Virus record (IMG/VR): IMGVR_UViG_3300028920_000002
Span: 1-64,000 of that record
Direction: 5' to 3' (one strand)
DNA from: a virus
DNA: 64,000 nt
Every line of letters begins with the position of its first letter. Positions within the stretch are counted from its first letter, which is position 1. Positions 12,543-62,770 of the stretch are shown piece after piece. A program made the translations under genes and the position numbers. The notes beneath the pieces were generated by a model that was not told where the DNA came from, ran no database searches, and saw only the letters and a program-made list of their open reading frames with translations.

Positions 12543-13049
12543 ATGGAGAAGCTCAGCGGCCTGGTTCTGGACCCGGCGGACGACCACGACGGAGCCATCC
12601 TCCGCTCCATCTTTCCCGCCGAGTCGGACGTGCCGGAGCTCATCAAGCAGGCGGAGTACTTGAGCCCTGAACGGCGCACGAAGCTGCCGGACGACTTGTT
12701 CGCGCTGATTCTTCAGAGCGATGATGTGTCTCTGCGCAAGTACGCCTGTGCGGACGCAGGGAACACGGCACTCAGCACCGAGTACTTCATGAAGACGGCG
12801 CACAAGTTGCCGGTAGAGGCGCAGAAGGTCGCCGCCTCAAACCTCGTGAAGGCGTGTGCCTGGTATGGCATCGAGCCTCCCGAGCAGCTCGAGAAGGTTG
12901 CTATTGGTCTGCTGACCATGGGTGTTGGTGCCCTGGCTGCCCCAGGTGCTATGCGTCAGGCGAAATCCAACCTGCAGATGGCCAAGCAGTCTCCCGGCAT
13001 CGTCAACCCAGAAGTGACCAAGGCCCCCGTGGTGCCGAAGATGAGGTGA
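12543..13049 (+). CDS. Putative head protein with DUF6582-like domain
   Basis: GGAGG RBS before ATG 12543; KLPDDLFAL..RKY..DA..A..NLVKAC.WYGI; K-x-A sites (MKTAH, EKVAI). Confidence 0.6.
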   Translation: MEKLSGLVLDPADDHDGAILRSIFPAESDVPELIKQAEYLSPERRTKLPDDLFALILQSDDVSLRKYACADAGNTALSTEYFMKTAHKLPVEAQKVAASNLVKACAWYGIEPPEQLEKVAIGLLTMGVGALAAPGAMRQAKSNLQMAKQSPGIVNPEVTKAPVVPKMR

Positions 13050-13052
13050 AGC

Positions 13053-13958
13053 ATGGTCGAGAAAGAAACTCGGCAGCAGTTGTGGCGAAGCATGGGACGC
13101 ATCCTGCACAAGGAGGCGGAACTCGCTGAGACCTACGATATGCCGCTGAGCCCTCCACCCAGCAAGAAGGACCGCGGCAAGGAGAAGACAGTCATCGACA
13201 AGGTCGGCTCTCTGCAACCTCATGTGGACGTGTCCGGGCTCGAGCCGCCGGGAGAGGTGAAGCAGGCGTCCGTCAGTCGCTTCGCCATGCCTTCTCAGCA
13301 GCGCTACCCGCTGGACAGCTACGCCCAGGTGAAGCAGGCAGAAGCCTACTTCATGGAGAACTTCGGCCTGCTACCTCCGAGAGACCGGCATGAATACTGC
13401 GAGAATCTCGTCGGGCGGGCGGGGGAGCTGGCCATCGGCGTGAGCCCGCTCATCGAGAAGTACGGCTCGAGCACCTACGCTACCGCGGAGCAGGTGGGCA
13501 TCGCCATCGACGGACGGCGCTCCATCCTGAAGGACCCGGAGCACGTGGAGCTTCTGGACAAGCTGGCACACATTCGGGTGCACACCCCACCTCAAGTCTT
13601 CGCTGATTCGCTGGCCGAGTTCGACAAGCTTGCCGGCATCGACGAGTACTACGGTCAGGACATCCCGGACCCGTACTACTCAACCTTCGGCAAGACCGCC
13701 GAGAAGCAGGAGAGCGAGACCAGCCCTGAGGGTGCCGTCGTCGTGGGCAATGAGTACGTCACTCAGAGAAAGCTGGTGGAATTCTCCAAGCGTGGGAGCG
13801 GCATCATCTCCAAACGATTCGGCGAAGACTTCCAGAAGGAGTTCACCCAGGACCCCGTGGGCATCCTCAAGTCCTTGCCGCGCGACCAGCAGCTCGTCAT
13901 CATGCGGCTGGCCAACACGGACGAGGTGGTCGGCGTCACTGCGCCGTACGGCGGGTAG
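13053..13958 (+). CDS. Putative head protein with DUF6582-like domain
   Basis: SRFAMPSQQRYPLDSYAQVKQAEAYF; HKEAE, VKQAS, DKLAH, GKTAE. Confidence 0.6.
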   Translation: MVEKETRQQLWRSMGRILHKEAELAETYDMPLSPPPSKKDRGKEKTVIDKVGSLQPHVDVSGLEPPGEVKQASVSRFAMPSQQRYPLDSYAQVKQAEAYFMENFGLLPPRDRHEYCENLVGRAGELAIGVSPLIEKYGSSTYATAEQVGIAIDGRRSILKDPEHVELLDKLAHIRVHTPPQVFADSLAEFDKLAGIDEYYGQDIPDPYYSTFGKTAEKQESETSPEGAVVVGNEYVTQRKLVEFSKRGSGIISKRFGEDFQKEFTQDPVGILKSLPRDQQLVIMRLANTDEVVGVTAPYGG

Positions 13959-13961
13959 TCC

Positions 13962-14798
13962 ATGGACGCTCCGCTCGATTTCGAGCAACGACTCAAGCGG
14001 GCGTTGGATAGCCTCGGCCTGCGCAAGACAGCTGCGCCCTACAAGGTGCCCGCGGGGGATGTCGGTCTACCCGAGGACGGTGATGTCGACAACACCGTGG
14101 AGGTGGAGACGACTCAGGGTGACCGCCAGGCCAGCGACGCAATCTCAGAGAAGCCGTTCCCGAATCCCGTAGGAATCAACCTGTTTCAGCACCCGAGCTC
14201 ACATCCCATCGTGCTGGACCTGGCTCTGCTCAAGAAGTACGGCCCGGAGTGGATGGACTGGGAGCCGGAGATTCTGGCGTGGCGCATTCCTCAGGACTTC
14301 AGGACCGCGTCGGTCAGCGACCTGAACATGAACAAGCTGCAGGCCACGAAGACTCTGCACTACGTGGACAGCTACTGGAGTGAGTGGGAGGTCTTCGTTC
14401 CCTGCACTATGTCGTTCAACGGTTTGCTCCCGGACTTCGAGGTCATGCAGGTGCCGACGGTGGCGCAGTGCATGGTCAGCGTGGACGTGGCCAACCGCAT
14501 TCGCCAGGATGTTTCATGGGGTGAAGAGCTGAAGGAGTACCTCTCCGTGGTGCACTTCCACGAGGGTATCTTCTGCCCCATCGAGCCACTCGAGTTCGTC
14601 AAGGTGGACGGTGAGGACTACCCTGTAGAGTGCGCAATAGTGCGTGAGTTGTGGCCACAGGTGCGCAAGACTGGGCGAGTCCCATCAACCAGTCCTGTTG
14701 AAGAAGAGCAGCTGCATCGACTGCTGCTCGTGCGAGAATATCTCGAGGAGAGCCGAGAGCTTCTTCGACAACAGCTGCCCCTCATCATCGATGCCTAG
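13962..14798 (+). CDS. Hypothetical virion-module protein
   Basis: 278 aa; N-terminal LGLRKTAA then acidic linker and globular region. Confidence 0.7.
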   Translation: MDAPLDFEQRLKRALDSLGLRKTAAPYKVPAGDVGLPEDGDVDNTVEVETTQGDRQASDAISEKPFPNPVGINLFQHPSSHPIVLDLALLKKYGPEWMDWEPEILAWRIPQDFRTASVSDLNMNKLQATKTLHYVDSYWSEWEVFVPCTMSFNGLLPDFEVMQVPTVAQCMVSVDVANRIRQDVSWGEELKEYLSVVHFHEGIFCPIEPLEFVKVDGEDYPVECAIVRELWPQVRKTGRVPSTSPVEEEQLHRLLLVREYLEESRELLRQQLPLIIDA

Positions 14799-16545
14799 AT
14801 TCAGCGAAGAGATAATGCTCGCCTTCGAGGACGAGCTGCAGAAAGAGGCGGCCGGCGCTGGTCAGCTCATGTCCTTTCTGCGCGCTGGAGGGCAGGCTGG
14901 GCTGCGCCGAGGCGCTGGCGTAGGCGCGGTGGGGGGCGGTCTAGCCGGCGGGCTGACCGGGCGTGAGGAGGGCGAGAGGTTCAACGTCGGCCGGGCGCTG
15001 GCGGGCGCCGCGGGCGGCGCGGCCCTCGGCGCTGGCGCCGGGCACTTCGGCTCGAGGGTGATGATGGGCCGGCGGGCCGGATTGGGGCTAGGGGAATCGG
15101 CTCGCATGGCGAAGCAGGACATCGCCGCCACCGTGCGGGGCCTGAGCCCCAAGAGGGTGACGGACGCCGAGAGGGCCAGTGAGGGGCTACGCAAAGCCAT
15201 GGAGCGGGCTCCCACACAGAAGGCGCCGGTGGGCGCGCCTACGAGCGACACCGGCTACCTGCGGGCCTACCGACACATGGACGAGCAGACACGCATCCGG
15301 CGCGGTCTGCCACCCCGCTCCGTCACTCAGCCCAGCCCGCGGGCGCCCGCAGTGAGCGGCGAGGCCACCATCGCCAACCCGGGTGTGGCCCGCCGTAGGG
15401 CGCCTCAGACCGGCGAGGCTACCATTGCCTCTCCAGCTCGCCAGCGGGCGGCACAGCGCGCTGCCGAGCAAGACCTGCCCACCATCATGACCGGCGGGCC
15501 CACGCTCCAGTCAGCTGGTAAGACCACTTTGGCCTCGGCCAAGTATGCTGCCCCCGCCTGGTACACGGCGGCGCGGGGCGCCATGCAGAAAGCGCTGCCG
15601 GGCGCCCAGTCGCGCTTGATGGGCGCTGGTGCTGGCGCGTCCCTGGGAGCCGTGGGCGGGGCCGGGCTCGGCGCCGGGGTTGGCGGCGTCCGCGGCTATC
15701 AGCAGGCCCGACAGCAGGGCGCCACTAAGGGGCAGGCACTGCTCTACGGACTGGGTGGTGGAATGAAGGGCATGGCCTTGGGCGGCGCGGCCGGGTTGAC
15801 CGCGGGCGGCGCGGCCGGCGGCCTGCTGCGCGGTGGAGCAGGGGTAGCGCGGCGTACGGCCGAGCTTGGGGGAGCTACCGGGGCCGTCAGTCGCTTTGGG
15901 CAGCGTCAGATGCATGCTCTCACTGGTGCTCTGCCCCAGGGCATGCCTCGACTTTCAGCTCAGCGGAGTATCGGTGTCGGCGGCGCAGACCTCGCCAGTC
16001 AGCTCAACAAGGCCAAGGCCGGTCTAGCGAAGGCTGCTCCAGGCTCAAGAGAGGCTGCCAGCGCACAGAAGCAGATAGGCTCTCTGTCGAAGGGCATGGA
16101 ACATGCGCGTGCGCTCGAGCAGATGGGGGCTACCAACCTACCTGGATACGTCAAGGCTCTGGCGTCCAGGGATGCAGGTAAGGTGCTCAAGCATACGGCT
16201 GGCTCTCAGTGGCATGGCACTCCCGGTGTAGGGGGCAAGCTCATGGCCTTTGGGATGCCAGCTGGCTTCGTCGGTATGGAGACACTCGGTAAGCCGCAGC
16301 CTGGGCAAGAGGGAGAGAGCAAGCTTCGACGAGGGGCCAAGTCTGTTGCTACGAACCTGCCGTTCCTGCTTCCTATGGGTATGGCTGGTCAACTGGTTGC
16401 TTCCGGCGCTGCAGGTAAGCTGATGGGGCGCCGTGGCGGACGCGTCCCAAACCCGGAGCCAGAGGAGGCGTCGGCATCTGGGGACGTGGAGCGCATCTAC
16501 TCACCGTCTGCGATGGGTAGGCCGCCGGAGGGTATGCTCACATGA
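14791..16545 (+). CDS. Gly/Ala-rich glycine-zipper protein, putative internal head/ejection protein
   Basis: Start at ATG 14791 (MPRFSEEIMLAFEDELQKEAA); several GxxxGxxxG segments among basic stretches. Confidence 0.6.
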   Translation: MPRFSEEIMLAFEDELQKEAAGAGQLMSFLRAGGQAGLRRGAGVGAVGGGLAGGLTGREEGERFNVGRALAGAAGGAALGAGAGHFGSRVMMGRRAGLGLGESARMAKQDIAATVRGLSPKRVTDAERASEGLRKAMERAPTQKAPVGAPTSDTGYLRAYRHMDEQTRIRRGLPPRSVTQPSPRAPAVSGEATIANPGVARRRAPQTGEATIASPARQRAAQRAAEQDLPTIMTGGPTLQSAGKTTLASAKYAAPAWYTAARGAMQKALPGAQSRLMGAGAGASLGAVGGAGLGAGVGGVRGYQQARQQGATKGQALLYGLGGGMKGMALGGAAGLTAGGAAGGLLRGGAGVARRTAELGGATGAVSRFGQRQMHALTGALPQGMPRLSAQRSIGVGGADLASQLNKAKAGLAKAAPGSREAASAQKQIGSLSKGMEHARALEQMGATNLPGYVKALASRDAGKVLKHTAGSQWHGTPGVGGKLMAFGMPAGFVGMETLGKPQPGQEGESKLRRGAKSVATNLPFLLPMGMAGQLVASGAAGKLMGRRGGRVPNPEPEEASASGDVERIYSPSAMGRPPEGMLT

Positions 16546-19395: not shown

Positions 19396-20766
19396 CTACT
19401 CGAACTCGTCAACCACTGATTGTTCTTCAGTGCAGATGACGATGTGCCCCCAGTCGGCCGGCTTGCTACGCCATCGGCTGGGTACGATGCACCAGATAAC
19501 CGGAATGCCTTTGGGTGGCTTGTCCGGCGCGGAGCCGTCACCGTCAGTCAAGTAGATGATGACGTCGGGGCGTGGCTTCAGTTTGGCGGCTCGCGCTAGC
19601 GGTTCGATGAAACTAGTGCCGCCGCGGCCTACTGGGTCGAGCCTGGGAATGTCCTTTAGCCTCACCAGCTTGAAGCCGTACTGCTGCGTGTCTGCATCAG
19701 CCCACCAGACCTGCTCCACACCGGTCTGCTCCATCAATGCGATGGCTTCGTTGTTCGCCTCGTGCAGCTGTTTGGTTCCCATGGAGCCAGAAGTGTCTCG
19801 GATGAGGCAGGGTACCCACTGCTGGTCAATCATGCCGGGTCGTAGAATGCCCCGCAGCAGTGAGCGTTTGGAGGGGCGCCGCAGGGAGAAGTCGCTGCCG
19901 CCTGAGATAGCGATACCGGAGGCGCGCCGAACGATGCGGCTGAGCGTACGCTTCCAGTCGTTCTTGGACTTCTTCTTGGGAACGCTGTCCAGCAGCTGTT
20001 TTAGGTGTCCAGGTACGGAGCCGCGACCCTGCTGCTCGACGTGCTCCCGCACGGCGTGAACTACTTCTTCTCGGGCGGATTGAACCTCGTCTTTGCTCCG
20101 GCCGAGACCACGTGACTTCAGCTCGTCTTCGACGGGGTCGTTGCTTGCACCACCGCCTGCGGAGCCGCTTACGCCGGAGCATATGTCCCAGCGCATTCCA
20201 TCCTTGCCACCCTGGCCCTTCTGCTTGGAGGAGCTCTTGCCACCCTGGCCCTGGTCGTCTCCGTCCCCACTGCCAGGCGGACTTCCCATCAGCCGGTAGA
20301 CCTTCTTGGCGTCTGCCTTCAGCCGCTCGAGATACTGTTCGAGCGTCTCGCCATCTGGATAGCCGTACGAACCCGGGAAAGCACCCCATGAAGGCAACTT
20401 CACTCCGGCCTGTTGAAGCGGACCGTTGATGGCCAGGTCTGCCGCGAGGGTGACCAAGTTCTCATCCTCGCCTTGTTGCAGCAGCACCTCGATGCGCTCC
20501 ATGTGTTCCTGCACATGCCAGCACTCGTGGAAGAGTACGCCGGCCAAGGTCTCTGGGTCACTCAGCTCGGGGTCGTCTACAACTCGTATTGGGTCGACGG
20601 AGAGGATGCAATCTTTGCTGACCCCGAGAGTGTTCAGCCCTACGACGAATACGGGGACCAGCTTGTACTGAATCGCCGACATGTACGGCGCGAGTTTCTC
20701 GAGCTCAAGGCGGGCGAGCTCCAGTAGGTCGCCCGCCTTGTCCTCATAGTCGATAGCTGCGCTCAT
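19396..20766 (-). CDS. HExxH metallopeptidase-like + VWA domain protein (DUF2201-like)
   Basis: GVLFHECWH, DLAIN, RRPSKR, IRDTSGSM (MIDAS), GRGGTSF, IYLTDGDG. Confidence 0.85.
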   Translation of the reverse strand: MSAAIDYEDKAGDLLELARLELEKLAPYMSAIQYKLVPVFVVGLNTLGVSKDCILSVDPIRVVDDPELSDPETLAGVLFHECWHVQEHMERIEVLLQQGEDENLVTLAADLAINGPLQQAGVKLPSWGAFPGSYGYPDGETLEQYLERLKADAKKVYRLMGSPPGSGDGDDQGQGGKSSSKQKGQGGKDGMRWDICSGVSGSAGGGASNDPVEDELKSRGLGRSKDEVQSAREEVVHAVREHVEQQGRGSVPGHLKQLLDSVPKKKSKNDWKRTLSRIVRRASGIAISGGSDFSLRRPSKRSLLRGILRPGMIDQQWVPCLIRDTSGSMGTKQLHEANNEAIALMEQTGVEQVWWADADTQQYGFKLVRLKDIPRLDPVGRGGTSFIEPLARAAKLKPRPDVIIYLTDGDGSAPDKPPKGIPVIWCIVPSRWRSKPADWGHIVICTEEQSVVDEFE

Positions 20767-22031
20767 AGACCCAGTGCGTTCGCGTACTTGGACAGGCCCT
20801 TCTGCCCGAGGCGGTAGACGACCTCTTCGGACACCTTCTTCAACTCAGGGGTTGCGTCTGTGGAGTCGAAGTAGACGTTGTGCTTGACCAGTGCGGCAGA
20901 AGATTTGACGGCCATGTCGCTGATTTTCTTGTCCATGCATCTGCCCAGGATGTCCCAGGCCGCAGGAGCGAGCTTGAGCTGCTCTTTGCGATTGGGTCGT
21001 CCGGTGAGGTACGTCACCATGCTGGTGAGCGCTGCAGCAGTGATGTCCAACCGTTGTGGGTTGGGCGTCCAGCCGTTGGTGAGCATCTCGAGGGGCTTGG
21101 GCAGGTCGCATTCGCGCAACCAGGTCAGCCACTCCTTCATGACACCTTGGCCCACACAGGCTTGCACGAGCTCACGCTCCAGTTCTCCTCGTAGCGCCTT
21201 GCGCGCCTCAGCGGCCTTCATCTGGTTTTCGTCGCTCGGGTCGGTGACGGGCAGGTCTGGGTACAGGCATGCGGCAGTAGCCTTGGCACGGCCGGCCCAG
21301 TTCCAGGTGCGGTGGCTAGGCCATGCACCGCCAGAGTCCGCATCATCCGGTTTGGGCTGCTGGTGAATCAGGGACGGCTTGCGCTTCATGAAGCCAACCA
21401 GTTGACCGCGTACTTCGGGCCATTCGTCGGGCCAGGAGTTAGTAACTCGCTGCTCTCCTTTTAGGACTGCCTCTACACGGAGCTGCGCATTGCCGAGCAG
21501 CCAGTCAATCCACTCGTCTGCGCTGGGCGCTCTGTAGGCCACATGCGCCAGTCGGTTGGCCAGAGGGGGCTCGAGGCCGAATCCGCCAGCGGCGTACTCC
21601 GGCGGGTTCATCGCAGTGACCACTCGCACTTTGGGTGGCAGGATGTGGTCTCCAACCCTGCGTTCATTGACCACGCTGAGCAGAGCAGCCTGGACCGCAG
21701 GGCGAGCGCATGAAATCTCGTCGATGAACAAGACACCGTAGCCGGTGTCTAGGAGCTTCCTCGCTTGAGGCAGAATGCACTCAATGACCACGCCGTTGGG
21801 CGTGGCGAAGGGGGCTCCCGTGAAGTCCTCCGGCTGCTTTGTAGCCGGGTAGACGGTTTGAACATTGAGACCTACTGCTGCACCGGCGGCCTGGATGCGC
21901 TCGGATTTGCCGATGCCGGAGAGCCCTTCGATGTTCACGGGCAATCCCCAGATGCAGGCGGGATTTGTCGGCTCGCCGTGGGGGACGAGAAACGCTGTCG
22001 CTAGGAACTGTTCTAGGCTAGCCATATTCAT
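20763..22031 (-). CDS. MoxR-type AAA+ ATPase
   Basis: EGLSGIGKS, LFIDEISCARPAVQAALL, AMNPP, LEPPLANRL, PSHRTW. Confidence 0.88.
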   Translation of the reverse strand: MNMASLEQFLATAFLVPHGEPTNPACIWGLPVNIEGLSGIGKSERIQAAGAAVGLNVQTVYPATKQPEDFTGAPFATPNGVVIECILPQARKLLDTGYGVLFIDEISCARPAVQAALLSVVNERRVGDHILPPKVRVVTAMNPPEYAAGGFGLEPPLANRLAHVAYRAPSADEWIDWLLGNAQLRVEAVLKGEQRVTNSWPDEWPEVRGQLVGFMKRKPSLIHQQPKPDDADSGGAWPSHRTWNWAGRAKATAACLYPDLPVTDPSDENQMKAAEARKALRGELERELVQACVGQGVMKEWLTWLRECDLPKPLEMLTNGWTPNPQRLDITAAALTSMVTYLTGRPNRKEQLKLAPAAWDILGRCMDKKISDMAVKSSAALVKHNVYFDSTDATPELKKVSEEVVYRLGQKGLSKYANALGL

Positions 22032-50302: not shown

Positions 50303-52236
50303 TGTCACGCATCGAAGACGCATTGAGACGGGACATCCCTCTGCATGTGGCGGCAGAGTACTTCTCCATGGTGAAGCAGGCTCGTGAGCTCACGATGAAG
50401 GGACGCGAGCAAATCAAGGAGAAGAACTTCGCCATTCCGAAGGGTGATGGGCCAGGAGATACTGGCAAGTACCCCATCCACGATGAGCGCCATGCGAAGA
50501 CCGCGCTCACCTATGTGGAGCAGCACGGCACGCCGGCGGAGAAGGCCAAGGTCTACTCGGCAGTGGCGAAGAAGTACCCAGGTCTCAGCCGCGAATCGAG
50601 CGTTCCTGCACTGCGAGAGAAGGCTCAGGAGAAGAAGGCCGCGGAGGAGAAGAAGGCGCCTATCAAGACGATGCACCCCGGAATCTCGGCGGCCATCGGC
50701 GCGGGTGGTGGTCAGGGAGTTCCTGACCTTGCGGCTGCTGCCTATCAGAAGATGAAGGGCAAGTCGGTTCGTGGAGCCGGCGTCAAGTCCCGCCTCGTAG
50801 GTGGCGCCATCGGTGCAGCTACGTTGGGAGCTGCCGGGTTGGCTGCACGTCGGCAGGAGAAGAAGCATCAGAAGCAGGAGAAGACGGCGGCCGATGAGTC
50901 CGACTCCGAACTGCGAGAGAAGGGACGACAGCGCGCTGTCTCCAGCATGGCCGCCGAGTTCGAGCGGGAGAAGTCCCGTCGGGCAGAGCGCGCCGGCGGC
51001 GCCCTGGGCGCCCTGGGTGGAGCTGCAGCAGGGGCGTTGGCTGGTAAGAAGCTCGTGGGTGGCAAGCTCGGGACGCTTGGTGGGGCGGCTCTCGGTTTGA
51101 CCACCGGGCGGCAGGCCGGCAAGGAGGTCGGCACCGAGGTCGACATCAAGCGGCACGAGAAGACCGCGGCGCTCAGATTCGATGAGGCGGCAGAGGCGCA
51201 GCTGCGCCCCATCGAGGCCGACACGCGTAAGGGTATGGGCAAGCTCTTCCGAGATGCTGGCATCGTGCGTGGGGCCGTACCCTCCGCTCTGGTCAGCGGG
51301 CTGGGAAGCGCTGCCCTCACCGCCGGAATGGGTGGTGGACTACGCGGGGCAGGCCGCGCCGCCGGCGCTGGCGCCCTCGGCGGGCTCGTCTTGGGCGGTC
51401 TCGGCGGTGCTCTGGCCGGGCAGGCCAAGGGGCAGGAGGCAGCCGAGCGCCTCAACGAGATGCGCCGCAACGCCGTCCTGGGGCGGGCCATCCAACAGCA
51501 GGCAGCTGCGCCTCCGCCGGAGGCAGTTCAGGAGCCGGTGAAGGCCGCTGCTGCCCGCATGAAGTTCAAGCTGGCCGCCACCAAGCTGGCCGACGACGGT
51601 GCCATGGGCCAGGAGGCCCCCATGACCTCCCCGACCGCGCCTGAGCTGCAGCCCCAGAACTATCTGGCGGCCGAGCAGATTGGCCAGCAGGCCCAGGACG
51701 CGACCGAGATGGCCTACTACAAGGAGCAGGCCCGTCAGGCTCAGCAGCAGGCGGCCATGGCCTCTCAGCAGGCCGAGGCGACGGCCGCTGCCTCCGCCGA
51801 GGGCCAGGCGCAGGCCCAGCAGCTCCAGCAGCAGGCGATGATGGCTCAGGATGAGGCCACCAAGCAGACCCAGGTGGCCGCCCAGCTACGCATCGCCCTG
51901 CAGGCCCAGCGGGCCAAGCTCATGGACGTGGTGAGCCAAGACCCGACTGAGGCCCTGGCCGCCGAGATTGGGCAGGGGCCGGCGCCGGCGGTGCCGCCGG
52001 GGGCCGAGGAGGCGGGGGCCGCCGCGGGCGCTCCACCGCCGCCCGAGGCCGGTATGCCCCAGCCTCCGCCTTCGGCCGCCGCCGCCAAGGAGATGGAGGA
52101 GGCCGCCCGCGCCCAGAACGACGCCGCCGAGCAGACCGCTCAGGCCGAGGGAGCCGCCCAGGGTGGCCCCGCTGCCGCCCCACCGCCCGGAGGCCCCGCC
52201 GGGCCGCCCGGCGCCGCCCCACCTGCAGGACCGTAG
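50299..52236 (+). CDS. Modular K-x-A-punctuated protein: DUF6582-like domain, three glycine zippers, Gln coil, Pro tail
   Basis: KNFAIP..KYPIHDERHAKTAL; modules separated by EKKAA, EKTAA (twice), VKAAA, FKLAA, TKLAD. Confidence 0.7.
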   Translation: MMSRIEDALRRDIPLHVAAEYFSMVKQARELTMKGREQIKEKNFAIPKGDGPGDTGKYPIHDERHAKTALTYVEQHGTPAEKAKVYSAVAKKYPGLSRESSVPALREKAQEKKAAEEKKAPIKTMHPGISAAIGAGGGQGVPDLAAAAYQKMKGKSVRGAGVKSRLVGGAIGAATLGAAGLAARRQEKKHQKQEKTAADESDSELREKGRQRAVSSMAAEFEREKSRRAERAGGALGALGGAAAGALAGKKLVGGKLGTLGGAALGLTTGRQAGKEVGTEVDIKRHEKTAALRFDEAAEAQLRPIEADTRKGMGKLFRDAGIVRGAVPSALVSGLGSAALTAGMGGGLRGAGRAAGAGALGGLVLGGLGGALAGQAKGQEAAERLNEMRRNAVLGRAIQQQAAAPPPEAVQEPVKAAAARMKFKLAATKLADDGAMGQEAPMTSPTAPELQPQNYLAAEQIGQQAQDATEMAYYKEQARQAQQQAAMASQQAEATAAASAEGQAQAQQLQQQAMMAQDEATKQTQVAAQLRIALQAQRAKLMDVVSQDPTEALAAEIGQGPAPAVPPGAEEAGAAAGAPPPPEAGMPQPPPSAAAAKEMEEAARAQNDAAEQTAQAEGAAQGGPAAAPPPGGPAGPPGAAPPAGP

Positions 52237-52249
52237 CTAGGAGCCAGTC

Positions 52250-53956
52250 ATGTTGGACCAATTCCTCGAGGTCGCCTACGAGGCACAGCAGAAGAAGGAA
52301 GCTCAGGCCGAGATGGTCGAGGGCTTCAAGAACCTCCCCGAGCGGGAGCTGTTCAAGCTGGCCACCGGTCAGACCAAGCTCGCCATGTACGACGGGGACG
52401 ACTGGCTCGAGAAGTACAAGGACACGGAGCTCTACCCCGAGGCCCTACAGCTCGAGCAGCAGTGCCTGCAGGCCAAGATTCAGCAGGAGCAGAAGCGCTT
52501 GGCCGAGCAGGAGGAGCGGGACTCCAAGCGCGAGGAGCAAGATGAGGAGTGGCGCGCGATGGACGCCATCCGCCTGAAGAAGCGCATCCTCGACCTCAAG
52601 CTCAATCAGGCAGAGCTCGCAGCTCTCGGCTCAGAAGGCGGAGAGGCCGGCGAGGAAGAGGAGTCTGAGGAGGAAGAGGCCGAAGAGGAGGCCGAGGAGC
52701 CTGAGGCTGAAGAGGGCGAGGAAGAAGCCGAGGCCGACAACGCCGCAGTGGCAGCTGATGAGAAGGCTGCTTCAGACATGAAGACTGCAGTGTCTATTGA
52801 TTGGGTGCGTCGCGGCGCTAGGAGTGGTGCCAAGCAAAGGACTCTGAAGGGGGAGGGTGAGAAGCTAGTTCAGTCCATCCGCAAAGCTCGAGCGCCGTCG
52901 CCCAAGAGGCAGGCGGCTAGCAAGGGTCTAGCTGAAGGCATGGTAGAGGCTGCCCGAACCAAGAAGGCGTCAGCGGCTCTCACGAAGGTCGCTCAGCCTC
53001 CGGCGGCGCAATCCATGAACCCCATCAAGGCTCGGCGGGTTGTCCAGCCTCAGCTGGAGGACGTGGCTCTCGACATGGACCTGCCCGAAACCTACACGCC
53101 ACAGGACGTAGAGGCCGGCGGTGCGCTGCTCGGTGAGAACATCGCAGCTCAGCGGGGAAAGCTCCAAGAGCAGGCTCAGTACGCCCAAGAGCATCCGGTG
53201 ATGAACAAGCTGAAGGGCGCGGTGCCCGGCGCTGTGATTGGCGGGGTGGGCGGTGGCCTAATCGGTGCAAGTACGGGAGGTACGGGCAAGCAGATGTTGG
53301 CTCGGGGAGCCATCGGTGCTGGCCTCGGCGCGCTCGGCATGGGAGGAATCACCGCTGCCGCCACTCCCGGCGCCGCGAAGCGTCAGGAGACGGCGGGTGA
53401 GTACGAGGCTGCTGAGCAGGCGCTCACGCCAGAGCTGCGGCAGGCCCTGGTAGAGCGTGAGCTCAAGGATTGGGGAGCTGAGCAGGCGCACAACCGGGCT
53501 CTTGCTTTGGCAGAGGCTCGAGCACCTCGTACGAACATCTCGCAGACGACGCGCAACGTCATGCGTCCGCCGTACGCTGCGGAGGATGAGGACGAAGGGG
53601 ACTACCGGTATGCGTCCGCTCAGCTCAAGCTCGCGGCGGCGAAGATTCGCATGCGCCAAGAGATGGAGAAGGAGGCGTGGGGCCCGGTGCTGGCGGCGAT
53701 GGGCAAGGGCCTGCAGGGCATGGGGCAGTTCGCTGCCAAATCCGGCCGTCAACTCGGTGGTGCCATCAGCCGTGGCGCCAAGGCAGGTACGGTAGCGCCG
53801 GTAGGCCGCACCCTGGGTAGGCAGGCGCAGGCTGGAATGATGCGCGCAGGCCAGTGGGCGGCGAAGAATCCCAAGGCTGCCCTAGGTATTGCTGGCGCCG
53901 GCGCGCTGGGCGTTGGTGGTCTGGGGTACATGGCAGGCCGCGGCTCCAACCAGTAG
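52250..53956 (+). CDS. Modular K-x-A-punctuated protein: acidic coil, basic module, glycine zippers
   Basis: FKLAT, TKLAM, EKAAS, MKTAV, KKASA, TKVAQ, LKLAA, EKEAW. Confidence 0.7.
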   Translation: MLDQFLEVAYEAQQKKEAQAEMVEGFKNLPERELFKLATGQTKLAMYDGDDWLEKYKDTELYPEALQLEQQCLQAKIQQEQKRLAEQEERDSKREEQDEEWRAMDAIRLKKRILDLKLNQAELAALGSEGGEAGEEEESEEEEAEEEAEEPEAEEGEEEAEADNAAVAADEKAASDMKTAVSIDWVRRGARSGAKQRTLKGEGEKLVQSIRKARAPSPKRQAASKGLAEGMVEAARTKKASAALTKVAQPPAAQSMNPIKARRVVQPQLEDVALDMDLPETYTPQDVEAGGALLGENIAAQRGKLQEQAQYAQEHPVMNKLKGAVPGAVIGGVGGGLIGASTGGTGKQMLARGAIGAGLGALGMGGITAAATPGAAKRQETAGEYEAAEQALTPELRQALVERELKDWGAEQAHNRALALAEARAPRTNISQTTRNVMRPPYAAEDEDEGDYRYASAQLKLAAAKIRMRQEMEKEAWGPVLAAMGKGLQGMGQFAAKSGRQLGGAISRGAKAGTVAPVGRTLGRQAQAGMMRAGQWAAKNPKAALGIAGAGALGVGGLGYMAGRGSNQ

Positions 53957-53969: not shown

Positions 53970-54860
53970 GTGCCCTGCCTGAAGGTCATCAACATCAAGG
54001 TTCGGTCTCTGTCGGTCGAGTACAACGAGGTCTCTTGGGAACTCGAGCCGACCAGCGAAGACGCCCTTGACTACACCTTCGAGGTGTTGAGGTCCGAAGG
54101 ACCTGAGGGACCTTTTGCGCCAGTTGCTCCTCCATTCGACGACCAGTACATCTTCGTCGACAACATCATCAAGAGCGCGAATCGACACCGTCAGTACTTC
54201 TACAAGGTGCGAATCACCAGCAAAATGTCTGGTGATTCCGAGGAGTTCGGACCTGCATCTCTCGGCGCAGATGCAGAGCTGGTGACGATTGAACTGCGCA
54301 CTCACATGAACCTCTTGTTCAAGGAGTACGCGGGTCGGTTGTGCTGGCTGCTGCCGGTGCGCACCTTCGGGCAGCGCTGCACGTGCTTCAACGAGACGCT
54401 GCAGCGTCGCACGCGTTCTGGCTGCCGTACCTGCTACGACACCGGCTTCGTCCGTGGGTACATGCACCCCATCGAGTTCTGGGCGCAGTTCGACCCCAGC
54501 CCCAAGGCAGAGCAGGAGACCAGCCTCGGTAAGCTCGAGCAGAGCAACACCACCCTACGCTTCGGCTATTGGCCACCGGCCAAGCCTGGCGACCTCATCA
54601 TCGAGAGCGAGAATCGACGGTGGAGAGTGGTGCAGGTCAGCTCGACGCAGCACAATCGAAGCGTGGTCCATCAGGAAGTCCAGGTCCACGAGGTTCCCAA
54701 GAGCGACATCGAGTACCTCATTGAGCTGCAGCTCGATAAGGCGCTGCGCGACATCACGAGCTCGCCCCCACGCAACTTCACCAACCCACACAACCTCGAA
54801 GCTTTCGAGGACGAGCACATCCCAGCCATCTACGACCTCTACTCCGGGTGCAGCCGATGA
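53970..54860 (+). CDS. Putative head-closure/neck protein
   Basis: N-terminal beta-sandwich, GQRCTC..CRTCYDTGF, GDLIIE..RWRV; position in the neck module. Confidence 0.6.
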   Translation: MPCLKVINIKVRSLSVEYNEVSWELEPTSEDALDYTFEVLRSEGPEGPFAPVAPPFDDQYIFVDNIIKSANRHRQYFYKVRITSKMSGDSEEFGPASLGADAELVTIELRTHMNLLFKEYAGRLCWLLPVRTFGQRCTCFNETLQRRTRSGCRTCYDTGFVRGYMHPIEFWAQFDPSPKAEQETSLGKLEQSNTTLRFGYWPPAKPGDLIIESENRRWRVVQVSSTQHNRSVVHQEVQVHEVPKSDIEYLIELQLDKALRDITSSPPRNFTNPHNLEAFEDEHIPAIYDLYSGCSR

Positions 54861-55228
54861 CTGCGTCAGTTCAGTACAGCGCTATGGCTGATGAGCTCAC
54901 CAAGATAGCTCAGCAGCCACAGGATGCAGCATCGAGTCCGCTTGAGGAGCAGAAACTTCCTCCGCACCCGGCACTCACCGCTGGTAAGGGAGCTCTGGGC
55001 TTCGGCGCCGGTCTGGGAGCTGGCTACCTGGGAGCGAAGGGGCTCGACCTGGCCATGGGTGGCCCAGGCAAACTGGCACCATGGGGGCTCAAGGCGGCGC
55101 CTGTACTCACCGGTCTTGGCGGACTGGCCTACATGCACTCTCAGGGCGTCACGCTCGACAAGATGCGCGAGGACGCTGCTGTGCGCCGGCGCATGAAGGA
55201 GGCTCAGCGTGGTCGCGTCAATTCCTGA
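54857..55228 (+). CDS. Small glycine-zipper protein with DELTKIA leader
   Basis: AMADELTKIAQ; GALGFGAGLGAGYLG. Confidence 0.65.
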   Translation: MTASVQYSAMADELTKIAQQPQDAASSPLEEQKLPPHPALTAGKGALGFGAGLGAGYLGAKGLDLAMGGPGKLAPWGLKAAPVLTGLGGLAYMHSQGVTLDKMREDAAVRRRMKEAQRGRVNS

Positions 55229-59339: not shown

Positions 59340-59726
59340 ATGTTGGACCTCGTCACCACCCAGGCGCTCCGCGATGAGCTCGTGAAGATTGCCAACGTCA
59401 AGGCGTTGGCGATTGGCAAGCGACTCGCGAAGCGGCCTCTCCCGCCCAGCGTCCGAGGGCTGAAGCCAAAGGCCGAGGCCCTCAAGAAGGTGGACTTCAG
59501 CATCGACCCGAAGCAGATGGCGTCCTGGGCGGGGAAGACCTCCACGGCGTCGGTCAAGTTGTCGGCCAAGCTGCCTCCCCAAGCGAAGGCCAGCTTGGAA
59601 GCCCTCGCCACACGGCTGGCCAAGAGCGAGAAGAAGGTACCTCAGAAGCTCGTCATGAAGAGCCTCGGCGGAGGCGGTGGCCTCATCAGTGGCAGGGGCA
59701 AGGCTGCCGTCATGGGCCTGAAGTAG
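59340..59726 (+). CDS. Small basic protein with DELVKIA leader
   Basis: ALRDELVKIAN; Lys-rich; between sheath and tube. Confidence 0.65.
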   Translation: MLDLVTTQALRDELVKIANVKALAIGKRLAKRPLPPSVRGLKPKAEALKKVDFSIDPKQMASWAGKTSTASVKLSAKLPPQAKASLEALATRLAKSEKKVPQKLVMKSLGGGGGLISGRGKAAVMGLK

Positions 59727-60511: not shown

Positions 60512-60523
60512 TAGGAGGTCCTC

Positions 60524-60931: not shown

Positions 60932-60942
60932 CCGGAGGCTAC

Positions 60943-61317
60943 GTGCTATTGGCCTCCTTCATGAGCGGTCCGGGGGCGGAAGCCGCCGAACTTGCTGGGA
61001 GAAGTGGGCTCACCCTGCTCGAGTCCAGCCTGCTCGGGGCCATCGCGGTACTATCTTTGCTTGTCGCGATTTTTGCGGTCTGGAAACTCAACCGGGTGCA
61101 AAATGAGAGGGTAGAGGACCAGAAGCAGATGAGCGAGCGTATGGAGAAGTTGGCTGACAGGCTGGTCAGCACTTTCTCCGAGACGAACAGCGCTCTACAA
61201 AACCTGACGCAGGCCGAAGTGCAAGGTCAGGCGCTCATGCAGCAGCTCAAGTCTTCCATCGACGGGGTCATCATGGCCGCGGTCCGTCGTGGTTCCTCTC
61301 ATCCGCCCCGTCCATGA
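60943..61317 (+). CDS. Holin-like single-TM protein
   Basis: LLGAIAVLSLLVAIFAVW followed by coiled coil (BhlA-like layout). Confidence 0.5.
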   Translation: MLLASFMSGPGAEAAELAGRSGLTLLESSLLGAIAVLSLLVAIFAVWKLNRVQNERVEDQKQMSERMEKLADRLVSTFSETNSALQNLTQAEVQGQALMQQLKSSIDGVIMAAVRRGSSHPPRP

Positions 61318-61327
61318 GGGGGTTCTC

Positions 61328-61591
61328 ATGCTCATGTTTTTCAGACGACTGGTTGGTGTGGAGGACACACAGCGAGAGGAGCATGCGCGCTTCAAACGCA
61401 ACCTGAACGGCTTCGATAAGCGAGCCACTGAGCTCAACGACATCGAATCCCAGCTGGCCAAGGTGGTACACGCCATCGACGAGAAGAAGGATGCCGTACA
61501 AGCTAGTCGTTGCTCAGGAGCATCCGGCGAACATTCATTGAACCTGACCATAGACGGAGAGAGCTGTGTCACAGGAGAAGCAGCAGAATGA
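61328..61591 (+). CDS. Small coiled-coil protein
   Basis: GAGGGGG RBS, ATG 61328. Confidence 0.55.
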   Translation: MLMFFRRLVGVEDTQREEHARFKRNLNGFDKRATELNDIESQLAKVVHAIDEKKDAVQASRCSGASGEHSLNLTIDGESCVTGEAAE

Positions 61592-62153
61592 GGGGACCGT
61601 CAGCCAAGAGGCGCAGGTCATCCGCCGCAAAGACCTGACGGACCTCGCCGACACGTTCAAGCAGGCGTTGTGCCCGGTCCAGAACCTTGTGGGGTTGGTG
61701 GGCGACCAGAACGTTTTGGTCAAAGAGACCAACAGACAGGTCAAGGACACCAGCCACAAGCAGAAGTGGCAGAGTGTGTGGCTCATCGCGCTGACCATTG
61801 GCTTCATAGCTGTGGCGGTAGCGCAGACACGTACTAGCAGTGCCCAAGATGTTACTGCCAAGAGCCAGAAGCAGCTTGTCGAGAGCGGCGCTCAGGTTCA
61901 GAAGGACTTGTCTGATGTCACTGTCGAGCTGCGCGGTCTAGTCGCACTTGCGAAGAAGACCGGGCAGCAGGTGGAGGACATCAAGGAGAACAAGGAAACC
62001 GAGCCCGAAGTTCAGCTGGTGGCTGAGACCGACCCGGTGAAGGCCCGCCGAGCACCGGTGAAGGTGCGTATTCTTCCTCCGAAGAAGAAGGGGGCTGCGC
62101 CTCCGCCGCAGTCGGCGGTAGAATTACCCATTCCCAGCAAGCACGTGAAGTGA
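61566..62153 (+). CDS. Single-TM coiled-coil protein (spanin-like?)
   Basis: VWLIALTIGFIAVAVA, then coiled coil and Pro-rich end. Confidence 0.5.
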   Translation: MSQEKQQNEGTVSQEAQVIRRKDLTDLADTFKQALCPVQNLVGLVGDQNVLVKETNRQVKDTSHKQKWQSVWLIALTIGFIAVAVAQTRTSSAQDVTAKSQKQLVESGAQVQKDLSDVTVELRGLVALAKKTGQQVEDIKENKETEPEVQLVAETDPVKARRAPVKVRILPPKKKGAAPPPQSAVELPIPSKHVK

Positions 62154-62770
62154 TGGAAAGCCCCAGCCCCGAGCTGATGCACGCATACGGTACCGACGAA
62201 TTCTACGTCGACAACCTGGAGAAGCGTGCGGCTCTGCCGATACTCGCTCGAATGGCTGCGGGTGCCGGTTTCCTCGGCCTGGTGGCTCATCAGAGACGGC
62301 ACGAGGAGCGTCTGCGTACTCAGGCTGCCATCCTGAATGAGATGTTCCGCCAGGAGGAGGCGGAGCGCATGGCGGCCACCATCCAGTCGTTTCAGCATCC
62401 AGGAGACAGAATGATGGCTGGCATCTATCCGCTCGACCAGGGCATGGAGCGCTTGGCGTCGGTGGCCGCACACATCGGTCGAGGAATGGCACACCAAGAG
62501 CTAGAAAAAGAAGCCGGCATAGGTGGCGCGGCGCTGAGTGCCCTCGGCAAGGGGCTGAGCCGGGCCAAAGGAGCCGTAGGCAGCGCCACCAAGATTGGGT
62601 GGAAGGGCAAGCTTCTTGGACTGGGTGCCCTTGGCGGAGTTGGATACCTCGGGTACAAGGGCCTGCAGGCGGGCAAGGACTACATGATGCAGCCCACTTC
62701 CGGTGGCCGTTGGGGTACGGGGCAGCAGCTCAGGACGCGTGTCAATCAGTGGGGGCAGCCTACCTACTGA
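62150..62770 (+). CDS. Glycine-zipper protein with K-x-A sites
   Basis: NLEKRAA, ELEKEAG; GLGALGGVGYLG. Confidence 0.65.
   Translation: MMESPSPELMHAYGTDEFYVDNLEKRAALPILARMAAGAGFLGLVAHQRRHEERLRTQAAILNEMFRQEEAERMAATIQSFQHPGDRMMAGIYPLDQGMERLASVAAHIGRGMAHQELEKEAGIGGAALSALGKGLSRAKGAVGSATKIGWKGKLLGLGALGGVGYLGYKGLQAGKDYMMQPTSGGRWGTGQQLRTRVNQWGQPTY

What the first reader, a model, noticed from the sequence alone, without database searches (positions are those of the whole stretch)
12543..62770. K-x-A(G)-punctuated head polyproteins: a candidate protease-coded capsid cargo system
Seen: about 15 virion-arm ORFs (12543, 13053, 14791, 32165, 34359, 40081, 41738, 42261, 44035, 45047, 46537, 50299, 52250, 54857, 59340, 62150) repeat a hydrophobic/E-K-x-A-small motif (EKTAA, EKLAS, VKTAS, QKEAA, TKIAQ), about 10 times each in 32165 and 40081. 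The sites fall between compositionally distinct modules (zipper, acidic coil, basic module, folded domain). The MCP has one near its N-terminus (EKIA, residues 25-28), while sheath, tube and TerL show no such punctuation by eye. Known: prohead proteases of T4 (gp21) and phiKZ (gp175) cut many head proteins at a short consensus ending in Glu; herpes assemblin, in the same clan as HK97-type proteases, cuts V/L-x-A|S. Inference: the 42261 protease cuts at K-x-A and converts these ORFs into dozens of peptides and enzymes stored in the head. I do not recognise a Lys-anchored, Ala-P1 consensus used as a polyprotein grammar from characterised phages.
Basis: partly seen in the sequence, partly recalled or inferred. 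Interest (0 to 1): 0.9.

Follow-up and report, generated by a model that had tools for sequence, protein, structure and literature searches.

The report
Lys-x-Ala head-protease cleavage motif
The head-assembly proteins of this uncultured 187-kb phage and its many relatives carry a conserved Lys-x-Ala signal that is most likely where the phage's own T4-type capsid protease cuts; I found no description of that specificity, no cut has been measured, and the "cargo polyprotein" idea goes beyond the evidence.

Summary
KTA occurs 23 times against 2.5, and never in 12,511 aa of control proteins. K.A is the top hit of an unbiased scan of 1,600 gapped residue pairs.

The motif is hydrophobic-[E/V]-K-[T/L]-A-[A/S]. 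It recurs in mutually unrelated proteins. It lies within the first 35 residues of 16 of the 17 ORFs. It is conserved across a clade with more than 1,400 protease homologues, including Salmonella phage Arash and Vibrio phage D69.

ORF 42261 has the fold of the T4 gp21 prohead protease, with invariant His117/His118 and Ser174, and carries an invariant K30-x-A32 site of its own.

The best reading is a cleavage code of a gp21-like protease that trims N-terminal leaders and degrades scaffold-like proteins. Its specificity differs from the cut-after-Glu rule of T4, phiKZ and SPN3US.

Three things are not supported:
- "Enzymes stored in the head": no enzyme domain was found in the motif-rich ORFs.
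- Strict punctuation between modules: six of ten sites in 32165 lie in confidently modelled elements.
- Membership of 34359, which is depleted in K.A.

The scissile bond is unknown and no cut has been measured. This scan has flagged the same motif before on other DNA.

The parts
42261..43961 (+). Prohead protease (566 aa). A gp21/assemblin-fold catalytic domain of about residues 35-275 is followed by a C-terminal extension of about 290 aa. Its own motif sites are K30-T-A32 (nt 42348-42356), K321-T-A and K523-L-A.
   Evidence: A1 alignment of 24 homologues down to 42% identity: invariant K30, A32, H117, H118, S174. AF2 model pLDDT 60.6. VIA-align best hit T4 gp21 5jbl_A, Z 8.7, rmsd 3.1, 139 aa; next VZV protease, Z 5.5. 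Foldseek top rows are 5jbl, then herpesvirus proteases, E about 0.1. ESM Atlas: 13 of 30 named neighbours are Peptidase_S77. No Pfam, PHROG or PDB sequence hit.
47577..48704 (+). Major capsid protein (375 aa) with one site near the N-terminus, E25-K-I-A28 (nt 47649-47660). Candidate short propeptide.
   Evidence: phrog_2522 major head protein, E 5.5e-9. GKEKIA[AQ] is kept in 13 orthologues. Arash and D69 have LVKEAG / LTKEAG shifted by two residues. The whole N-terminus is conserved, so this site alone is weak evidence.
32165..34357 (+). 730-aa multidomain virion-module protein of unknown fold with 10 K.A sites (K13, 188, 210, 268, 294, 320, 567, 598, 618, 647).
   Evidence: 10 vs 2.7 expected, p<0.003. 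In 80 homologues: 12.1 K.A per protein vs 3.5 shuffled; K in K.A conserved 0.85 vs 0.54 for other K. AF2 pLDDT 83.3: K13, K210 and K268 in low-confidence stretches, K188 in an isolated helix of the flexible stretch, six in confident elements. No fold match.
40081..41736 (+). 551-aa protein upstream of the protease with 12 K.A sites; 46% of its lysines are in K.A.
   Evidence: 12 vs 3.6 expected. 8 of 12 sites are kept in the one full-length orthologue. Its orthologue in the distant relative G003 is enriched too, 8 vs 3.0.
41738..42259 (+). 173-aa protein with a single leader site, L-R-K12-E-A-A.
   Evidence: SD-like sequence before the 41738 ATG. K kept in 0.71 and A in 0.76 of 17 orthologues, against flank identity 0.15.
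44035..45027 (+). 330-aa acidic, Gly-rich protein in the scaffold position (between protease and MCP) with 10 K.A sites.
   Evidence: 10 vs 4.8 expected. A3 alignment of 18 orthologues: K33, A35 and K109 invariant; EKTA islands recur in variable acidic linkers. The start is confirmed by the conserved MNE[LW]LAQ.YGT.
45047..46528 (+). Protein of up to 493 aa in the scaffold region with 12 K.A sites. The true start is probably downstream, at Met79 (nt 45281).
   Evidence: 12 vs 5.0, p 0.003. K in K.A conserved 0.64 vs 0.43. Orthologue conservation begins at MEFLPQKVAH.
46537..46923 (+). 128-aa helical protein; 7 of its 9 lysines are in K.A.
   Evidence: 7 vs 1.6 expected, p<0.003.
12543..13958 (+). 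Two ORFs upstream of the portal-like gene (12543-13049, 13053-13958), each enriched in K.A.
   Evidence: 5 vs 1.8 and 6 vs 1.3. Their fused orthologue in G003 (104047-105057) has 9 vs 2.0.
13962..16545 (+). Two ORFs (13962-14798, 14791-16545) with leader-like sites only: L-R-K22-T-A-A and L-Q-K18-E-A-A.
   Evidence: Sequence. Not individually enriched. No SD-like sequence before 14791, so that start is less certain.
50299..53956 (+). Two Ala/Gly-rich ORFs (50299-52236, 52250-53956) with EKTA/KTA sites but little or no overall K.A excess.
   Evidence: 10 vs 9.5 and 11 vs 6.9. KTA at residues 67, 195 and 288 of 50299 and at 178 of 52250.
54857..55228 (+). 123-aa protein with leader A-D-E-L-T-K16-I-A and five K.A in all.
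   Evidence: 5 vs 1.3, p 0.003.
59340..59726 (+). 128-aa basic protein with leader R-D-E-L-V-K16-I-A.
   Evidence: Sequence. Not enriched overall.
62150..62770 (+). 206-aa protein with L-E-K25-R-A-A and L-E-K120-E-A-G.
   Evidence: Phi.K.A 2 vs 0.4, p 0.05.
34359..35870 (+).
   Evidence: 1 K.A vs 5.1 expected; 51 lysines. No Pfam or PHROG family.
19396..22031 (-). Second protease candidate, considered and excluded: a DUF2201_N HExxH putative metallopeptidase with a VWA-like domain (19396-20766), next to a MoxR-type AAA ATPase (20763-22031).
   Evidence: Pfam PF13203 E 3e-20, PF09967 E 1e-13, PF07728. PF13203 is absent from three complete relatives and from Arash and D69, all of which keep the motif.

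Best explanation
The motif, hydrophobic-[E/V]-K-[T/L/x]-A-[A/S/G], is the recognition and cleavage signal of the phage's own prohead serine protease, ORF 42261. That enzyme has the T4 gp21 / herpes assemblin fold.

Proposed mechanism, by analogy with T4 and phiKZ:
1. The protease is built into the prohead core together with its substrates.
2. Once active, it removes short N-terminal leaders of about 12-35 aa from the MCP, from itself and from a set of head-internal or head-associated proteins.
3. It cuts the scaffold-position proteins (44035, 45047, 46537, and probably parts of 40081 and 32165) at several sites, so that they can be cleared or rearranged before DNA packaging.

Shown here: the enrichment, its restriction to head-module proteins, its conservation across the clade, the N-terminal bias, and the protease fold with invariant His and Ser.

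Inferred: that the sites are cut at all, that 42261 does the cutting, and where the scissile bond lies. I favour a cut after Ala at about 60:40. Position +2 accepts only A, G or S and +3 is mostly S or A, a small-small pair as at the assemblin A|S site. A cut after Lys, with the hydrophobic residue at P3 as in T4 L/I-x-E, is not excluded.
For: 1. Enrichment is strong, directional and specific. KTA 23 vs 2.5 in candidates and 0 in controls. K.A is the top of 1,600 gapped pairs. A.K, K..A and KA show no comparable excess.
2. The 17 carriers share no detectable sequence similarity with each other (blastp E <= 0.01 finds nothing), so the motif arose independently in unrelated proteins.
3. 16 of 17 carriers have a K.A within the first 35 residues, against 4.8 in shuffles (0 of 1,000 shuffles reach 16). 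Controls: 7 of 30 vs 3.8.
4. Clade-wide conservation. [LIVMF].K.A[ASG] has z >= 3.7 in 28 of 32 related loci, with GC 0.44-0.65, including the cultured phages Arash and D69 (z about 14). The four loci below that are cut off at or soon after the start of the protease gene.
5. Site-level conservation. K30 and A32 of the protease are invariant in 24 homologues while their flanks vary. In 80 homologues of 32165, K in K.A is conserved 0.85 vs 0.54 for other K. In 44035, K33 and A35 are conserved 1.00 against flank identity 0.32 in 17 orthologues, and EKTA islands sit in gapped acidic linkers.
6. Independent replicate. An unbiased scan of a complete distant relative (G003, 173 kb, protease 35% identical) picks out the orthologues of 12543/13053, 32165, 40081 and 44035.
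7. Protease identity. 5jbl (T4 gp21) is the top hit of VIA-align (Z 8.7, next Z 5.5 is VZV assemblin) and of Foldseek. H117/H118 and S174 are invariant. ESM neighbours are Peptidase_S77, S78 and S80.
8. The layout matches the precedent: T4 gp21 and phiKZ gp175 cut the MCP, themselves, N-terminal targeting propeptides and, many times over, the scaffold/core proteins (PMC9026906). Immediately after the catalytic domain the window has ADKTAK and the marine-like clade has MAKVAS; Arash has LEKVAN.
9. The only other protease-like gene in the window is absent from relatives that keep the motif.
Against: - No cleavage has been observed. The only virion proteome of a cultured relative (Arash, PMC10585845) is a tryptic shotgun list with no cleavage analysis (the paper never mentions cleavage or a protease) and includes proteins such as ribonucleotide reductase, so it cannot test the idea.
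- The protease has no sequence-level family match. Its model is only moderately confident (pLDDT 60.6), and Z 8.7 is near the range the tool calls common.
- In 32165, six of ten sites, including the invariant K294-T-A296 in a beta-strand, lie in confidently modelled elements. A protease would not easily reach them there, and their conservation may simply reflect the fold.
- Co-occurrence of motif and protease is partly built in, because the related loci were found through the protease.
- The candidate list and some start codons were chosen by a reader who was looking at the motif.
Confidence: 0.65

Rival explanations
1. The multi-site ORFs are true polyproteins that the protease converts into dozens of functional peptides and enzymes. 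These stay in the head as cargo and are delivered to the host.
For: Several carriers are long and modular (32165, 40081, 50299, 52250). Head-internal ejected proteins with cleaved propeptides exist in T4, phiKZ and SPN3US. Homologues in Arash were detected in the virion preparation (gp218, gp220-225).
Against: No enzyme or other known domain in any motif-rich ORF. 34359, the enzyme-like candidate, is depleted in the motif. Six of ten sites in 32165 lie in confidently modelled elements rather than between modules. The densest carriers sit in the scaffold position, and in T4 such fragments mostly leave the head.
Confidence: 0.12
2. The motif is a short binding or targeting signal that docks proteins to the scaffold, the MCP inner surface or the portal during assembly. 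It is not itself cut.
For: The N-terminal bias and the multiplicity would also suit an avidity-based targeting tag. Sites inside folded domains are easier to reconcile with binding or structure than with cutting. T4's capsid targeting sequence shows that leaders can carry targeting information.
Against: The MCP and the protease, which need no targeting to their own shell, carry the site at the position where gp21-type systems cut. Only A, G or S is tolerated at +2, and small residues dominate +3, which is a typical protease subsite pattern. Targeting and cutting are not exclusive: in T4 the tag ends in the cleavage site.
Confidence: 0.13
3. The sites are cut by a different protease: the DUF2201_N HExxH putative metallopeptidase at 19396-20766, or a host enzyme.
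For: A second protease-like gene exists in the window. 42261 has no sequence-level protease signature.
Against: PF13203 is absent from three complete relatives and from Arash and D69, all of which keep the motif. The motif is conserved in phages of very different hosts (Salmonella, Vibrio, unknown high-GC and marine hosts), which argues against a host enzyme. 42261 homologues are present in every locus and have the gp21 fold.
Confidence: 0.04
4. There is no signal. K-x-A is a by-product of Ala/Lys/Glu-rich helical or low-complexity sequence, plus the reader's selection of ORFs.
For: The carriers are Ala-rich. Several (14791, 50299, 59340) show no excess over their own composition. The set was chosen by eye.
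Against: Per-protein shuffles control for composition. The reverse and shifted patterns are not enriched. Flanking preferences exist at -2, -1, +1 and +3. K is 97% conserved, with 0.3% R, at conserved sites. An unbiased scan of a distant genome finds the same orthologues.
Confidence: 0.04

Closest known systems
Phage T4 prohead protease gp21 (MEROPS S77, PDB 5jbl), with its L/I-x-E sites and the capsid targeting sequences of the internal proteins
   Same: Best structural match of 42261. A short linear motif with a hydrophobic residue two positions before a charged one. Sites near the N-termini of the MCP, the protease and small head proteins, and many sites in the scaffold/core proteins encoded around the protease and MCP genes.
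   Different: T4 cuts after Glu at L/I-x-E (PMC9026906). Here [LI].E is at expectation and the conserved residues are Lys and Ala. 42261 gives no Pfam PF03420 hit and carries a C-terminal extension of about 290 aa.
phiKZ gp175 and SPN3US gp245 (giant-phage gp21 homologues), motif S/A-x-E
   Same: A large virion, many head proteins with N-terminal propeptides, redundant sites within propeptides, self-cleavage of the protease, and a virion-associated multisubunit-type RNAP in the same phages.
   Different: Those enzymes also cut after Glu. [SAG].E is not enriched here. No sequence similarity was detected.
Herpesvirus assemblin (HSV/PrV UL26, HCMV UL80, VZV; clan SH), with release and maturation sites cut at Ala|Ser
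   Same: Second-best fold family (VZV protease Z 5.5; pseudorabies virus and HSV-1 proteases among the first eight Foldseek rows). A small residue followed by Ser/Ala at +2/+3 of the motif. A protease fused to a long C-terminal part, with a site right after the catalytic domain and another about 40 residues from the C-terminus (K523), like the R and M sites.
   Different: The herpes-type pattern [VLI].A[SA] is not enriched. The invariant Lys two residues before Ala has no counterpart in the assemblin rule. The match is weaker than to gp21.

Membership tests
T4 gp21-type prohead serine protease (Peptidase_S77, clan SH) | gp21/assemblin fold of the catalytic domain | tested here: met
   VIA-align: 5jbl_A Z 8.7, rmsd 3.1, 139 of 165 residues, 3 Z units above the next family. 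Foldseek top rows are 5jbl (E 0.09, weak). The model is only pLDDT 60.6.
T4 gp21-type prohead serine protease (Peptidase_S77, clan SH) | Conserved catalytic His and Ser | tested here: inconclusive
   H117, H118 and S174 (in V-S-M-G) are invariant in 24 homologues. Their equivalence to the catalytic residues of gp21 was not checked residue by residue.
T4 gp21-type prohead serine protease (Peptidase_S77, clan SH) | Sequence match to the family profile (PF03420) | tested here: not met
   No Pfam hit for the protein or for any of 24 homologues at E <= 1. No PDB sequence hit. Only ESM-feature neighbours carry PF03420 (13 of 30, score 0.91).
T4 gp21-type prohead serine protease (Peptidase_S77, clan SH) | Gene lies in the head module next to the scaffold and MCP genes | tested here: met
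   Order is TerL 37527, 40081, 41738, protease 42261, 44035, 45047, 46537, 46975, MCP 47577. The same order is seen in Arash gp218-226 and in G003.
T4 gp21-type prohead serine protease (Peptidase_S77, clan SH) | Cuts after Glu at L/I-x-E (or S/A-x-E) | tested here: not met
   [LI].E 60 vs 60.5 and [SAG].E 138 vs 154 in the candidate substrates. This tests motif enrichment, not enzymology.
T4 gp21-type prohead serine protease (Peptidase_S77, clan SH) | Proteolytic activity on head proteins, and autoprocessing | not testable with these tools
   Needs MS or biochemistry.
Herpesvirus-type assemblin | Assemblin fold | tested here: inconclusive
   VZV protease Z 5.5, rmsd 4.2, 110 aa; HCMV Z 3.6; KSHV Z 2.8. 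Foldseek rows have E 0.1-1. Same clan as gp21, but a weaker match.
Herpesvirus-type assemblin | Cleavage at (V/L)-x-A|S | tested here: not met
   [VLI].A[SA] 26 vs 28.4. Only the small-small +2/+3 pair resembles it.
Viral polyprotein (protease-released functional units) | Sites lie between independently folding functional modules | tested here: inconclusive
   32165: three of ten sites in low-confidence stretches, one in an isolated helix, six in confident elements; low-confidence blocks make up about 22% of the protein. In 44035 the EKTA islands do lie in variable linkers.
Viral polyprotein (protease-released functional units) | Released units have recognisable functions (enzymes) | tested here: not met
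   No significant Pfam or functionally annotated PHROG family in any motif-rich ORF; the only hits are weak or of unknown function.

The most novel reading that the evidence does not exclude
A short leader ending in hydrophobic-E-K-x-A-[A/S] is a portable load-and-release tag. Any protein that carries it is built into the prohead and freed by the protease. The multi-site proteins are real polyproteins whose pieces stay in the head and enter the host. On this reading a widespread uncultured phage clade uses a Lys/Ala grammar as a programmable capsid cargo system.
Probability: 0.13. Interest if true: 0.8.

Novelty: new variant of a known kind. Interest (0 to 1): 0.55.

Why it matters
In the reviews read here, the characterised gp21-type head proteases (T4, phiKZ, SPN3US) all cut after Glu. 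A Lys-x-Ala code in a clade with more than 1,400 protease homologues would show that the specificity of this old enzyme family can be rewritten wholesale, together with all its substrates.

In practice, the motif lets one predict mature N-termini, propeptides, scaffold-like proteins and head-internal proteins in hundreds of otherwise unannotatable genomes of 170-200 kb.

It is directly testable, because cultured members exist (Salmonella phage Arash; Vibrio phages D69, D148 and D181).

Tried and rejected
- Complex prediction (protease domain A1 35-300 with the N-terminal 70 residues of 44035, A3) was sent nine times. It did not complete, so there is no result.
- Sequence-level family searches for the protease found nothing: Pfam, PHROGs, a profile against PDB sequences, and Pfam on 24 homologues.
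- Megablast of the head module against 50,697 phage records found no match.
- Fold searches with the good model of 32165 gave nothing usable. Foldseek gave only weak rows; several were chymotrypsin-fold proteases at probability about 0.1. I rejected those, because no His is invariant or nearly invariant in the beta-rich region 350-505. VIA-align matched only the generic C-terminal helical bundle.
- The Arash paper and its supplements hold no peptide-level data. Supplement 2 is the gene table.
- A literature search for 'K-X-A' with capsid, protease and phage returned 0 papers. The T4 and SPN3US papers read here list only Glu-P1 motifs.
- The DUF2201 metallopeptidase was rejected as the responsible enzyme.
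- The idea that the motif was inherited by duplication of one domain was rejected: there is no pairwise similarity among carriers. A few K.A do lie in a segment with a weak DUF6582-like / phrog_16160 match in 13053 and 50299.

Full report
WHAT THE WINDOW IS
The window is the first 64 kb of a single 186,723-bp virus record, GC about 0.6. Between 12.5 and 63 kb lies a rightward virion module.

Genes identified there:
- a single-chain RNA polymerase beta-beta' (23816-30271; Pfam Rpb2_6 E 3e-63, Rpb1_2 E 4e-27)
- TerL (37527-39323; phrog_675 E 4e-55)
- the MCP (47577-48704; phrog_2522 E 5.5e-9)
- a sheath-like protein (56157-59330; phrog_279 E 1e-6)

Megablast against 50,697 phage records finds nothing. 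By tblastn the only cultured relatives are distant: Salmonella phage Arash and Vibrio phages D69, D148 and D181, whose proteases are about 30-33% identical. In metagenomes the protease alone has more than 1,400 homologues, many on contigs of 170-200 kb.

- K.A 106 vs 58.1 expected (z 7.2)
- KTA 23 vs 2.5 (z 13.7)
- EK.A 30 vs 4.9
- [LIVMFE]K.A[ASGQ] 35 vs 6.3

Thirty control ORFs (12,511 aa) have no KTA at all (2.9 expected) and EK.A at expectation. The reverse pattern A.K is not enriched.

An unbiased scan of all 1,600 residue pairs at gaps 0-3 puts K.A first in the candidates; it is not among the 15 most enriched pairs in the controls. T4-type [LI].E, phiKZ-type [SAG].E and herpes-type [VLI].A[SA] sit at expectation.

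The position-specific profile is L/F/M at -2, E/V at -1, K, T/L at +1, A, and A/S at +3. The same profile appears in three separately pooled groups of relatives.

The 17 carriers have no detectable similarity to one another, so the motif is not inherited from a shared domain.

Sixteen of the 17 have a K.A within the first 35 residues, against 4.8 in shuffles; none of 1,000 shuffles reached 16. SD-like sequences or orthologue alignments support the starts at 12543, 41738 and 44035. The start at 14791 is not supported in this way. The true start of 45047 is probably Met79.

MEMBERSHIP NEEDS TRIMMING
- Individually enriched (p <= 0.015): 12543, 13053, 32165, 40081, 44035, 45047, 46537, 54857.
- Marginal: 13962, 52250, 62150.
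- Leader-like single site only: 14791, 41738, 42261, 59340. 50299 has 10 K.A vs 9.5 expected.
- 34359 has 1 K.A against 5.1 expected and does not belong.
- The MCP does carry E25-K-I-A28.

CONSERVATION
[LIVMF].K.A[ASG] is enriched at z >= 3.7 in 28 of 32 related loci, with GC between 0.44 and 0.65, including Arash and D69 (z about 14). The four exceptions are contigs that end at or soon after the start of the protease gene. Arash gp220-gp225 and its MCP read like the window: IEKTAS, MEKAAS, LTKQAAA at residue 29 of the protease homologue gp222, and LVKEAG in the MCP.

At site level:
- K30 and A32 of the protease are invariant in 24 homologues down to 42% identity, while their neighbours vary.
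- In 80 homologues of 32165, every protein has 8-15 K.A (mean 12.1 vs 3.5 shuffled). K in K.A is conserved 0.85 against 0.54 for other lysines; A in the motif 0.76 against 0.47.
- In the 44035 family, K33 and A35 are invariant and K109 is invariant, against flank identities of 0.3-0.4. EKTA islands recur in gapped, acidic, otherwise unalignable linkers.
- At 11 conserved sites, K is 97% (R only 0.3%). The Ala position is A 86%, G 9%, S 2%. Position +3 is S 36% and A 21%.

The individually enriched ones include the orthologues of 12543/13053 (9 vs 2.0), 32165 (17 vs 5.1), 40081 (8 vs 3.0) and 44035 (6 vs 1.5).

THE PROTEASE
ORF 42261 has no Pfam, PHROG or PDB sequence match, alone or as a profile.
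- An AF2 model of residues 1-320 is moderate (pLDDT 60.6, pTM 0.60).
- A search of 48,161 PDB representatives that does not use Foldseek puts T4 gp21 (5jbl_A) first: Z 8.7, rmsd 3.1, 139 aligned of 165. The VZV protease is next at Z 5.5.
- Foldseek independently lists 5jbl first, followed by herpesvirus proteases, at weak E-values.
- H117, H118 and S174 (V-S-M-G) are invariant.
- ESM Atlas neighbours with names are mainly Peptidase_S77, then S78 and S80.
- In some homologues an intein sits between G68 and S69 of the invariant GSNINGD segment.

I take the protease assignment as well supported at fold level. Catalysis is not proven.

A second protease-like gene exists on the other strand: 19396-20766, DUF2201_N with HExxH plus a VWA-like domain, next to a MoxR-type ATPase. 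That family is absent from three complete relatives and from Arash and D69, all of which keep the motif. It is therefore not the motif's partner.

MECHANISM
The layout matches the T4/phiKZ paradigm summarised in PMC9026906. There a core-resident serine protease cuts at a very short motif. It removes N-terminal targeting propeptides from internal proteins. It trims the MCP and itself. It chops the scaffold/core proteins at many sites, and most of those fragments leave the head.

Here the densest carriers (44035, 45047, 46537) lie exactly between the protease and the MCP. The MCP and the protease carry N-terminal sites. Small proteins carry leaders of the form (D/E)-E-L-x-K-x-A. Immediately after the catalytic domain the window has ADKTAK and the marine-like clade has MAKVAS, and Arash has LEKVAN. 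Another site lies about 40 residues from the C-terminus (K523). This resembles the release and maturation sites of herpesvirus protease-scaffold fusions.

The difference is the chemistry: Lys and Ala instead of Glu.

Where the bond is cut is open. The small-small pair at +2/+3 favours A|S/A, as in assemblin. A hydrophobic residue two positions before Lys mirrors T4's L/I-x-E| and would fit a cut after Lys. I put this at about 60:40 for a cut after Ala.

WHAT IS NOT SUPPORTED
- The 'polyprotein cargo' part of the interpretation. No motif-rich ORF has an enzyme or any significant, functionally annotated domain.
- Strict punctuation between modules. The AF2 model of 32165 is good (pLDDT 83.3). 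K13, K210 and K268 lie in low-confidence stretches and K188 lies in an isolated helix of the flexible 141-210 stretch. K294 (beta-strand), K320, K567, K598, K618 and K647 lie in confident elements. With about 22% of the protein at low confidence, this is no clear enrichment in linkers.
- Those buried-looking, invariant sites are the main unexplained point. They may be conserved for folding reasons, may be exposed at the ends of secondary-structure elements, or may mean that the motif also serves binding.
- 32165 has no recognisable fold.

LITERATURE AND EARLIER NOTES
The Arash paper (PMC10585845) lists 116 'virion' proteins from a tryptic shotgun run. It never mentions cleavage or a protease, and its supplements hold no peptides. 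No paper combines 'K-X-A' with capsid, protease and phage. The T4 and SPN3US papers list only Glu-P1 motifs for gp21-type enzymes.

This scan has flagged the same motif on other DNA several times, with follow-up agents reaching similar readings. Those are unchecked AI notes and I give them no weight as evidence. They do mean that this window is one more member of an already noticed phenomenon.

VERDICT
- Observation: confirmed.
- Interpretation: partly supported. A cleavage code of a gp21-like protease is likely; a cargo polyprotein system is unshown.
- Novelty: a new variant of a known kind of system.
- The finding is testable in cultured relatives.

Noticed in passing
homologues P0023, P0047, P0065, P0066, P0078, P0109 of window 42261-43961: Some protease homologues are 935-973 aa and carry intein or homing-endonuclease domains (PF14528, PF13403, PF14890). 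In P0023 the insert sits between G68 and S69 of the invariant E-Y-Y-G-S-N-I-N-G-D segment, which marks that segment as functionally critical.
   Followed up: partly
window 19396-22031 (- strand): A MoxR-type AAA ATPase (PF07728) lies next to a DUF2201_N HExxH putative metallopeptidase with a VWA-like domain. The metallopeptidase family is absent from three complete relatives and from Arash and D69, so it looks like an accessory of this phage lineage.
   Followed up: partly
window 59750-60511 and 56157-59330: The 253-aa tube-position protein has no lysine at all, and the 1,057-aa sheath-like protein has only 18 (1.7%). Lysine looks scarce in these two tail proteins of a phage whose head proteins use Lys as a signal. 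This may be coincidence.
   Followed up: no
window 14791-16545, 44035-45027, 50299-53956, 54857-55228, 62150-62770: Many motif carriers also contain long Gly/Ala 'glycine-zipper' stretches. G...G is the second most enriched pair in the set (125 vs 76, z 5.6). No explanation was tested.
   Followed up: no
window 23816-30271: A single-chain beta-beta' RNA polymerase of 2,151 aa. In Arash the beta and beta' homologues are separate genes and are among the most abundant proteins of the virion preparation (PMC10585845). The window's RNAP has no K.A leader (first K.A at residue 88) and no K.A excess (17 vs 14).
   Followed up: partly
G000:C1:98253-101576 (outside the window): A second, weaker cluster of EKTA/KTA sites. 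The 554-aa ORF at 99364-101028 has three KTA, its neighbour at 98253 has EKTA, and 101028 has EK.A at residue 14. None is individually significant.
   Followed up: no
window 13053-13958 (residues 70-101) and 50299-52236 (residues 30-91): A small segment with a weak DUF6582-like / phrog_16160 match (K-Y-P-I-x-D...H-A-K-T-A-L). A few K.A instances lie inside it, so they may be part of a fold rather than free sites.
   Followed up: partly
window 45047-45280: The first 78 codons of the 45047 ORF (Pro/Gly-rich) are probably not translated. Orthologue conservation starts at Met79 (nt 45281, MEFLPQKVAH).
   Followed up: partly
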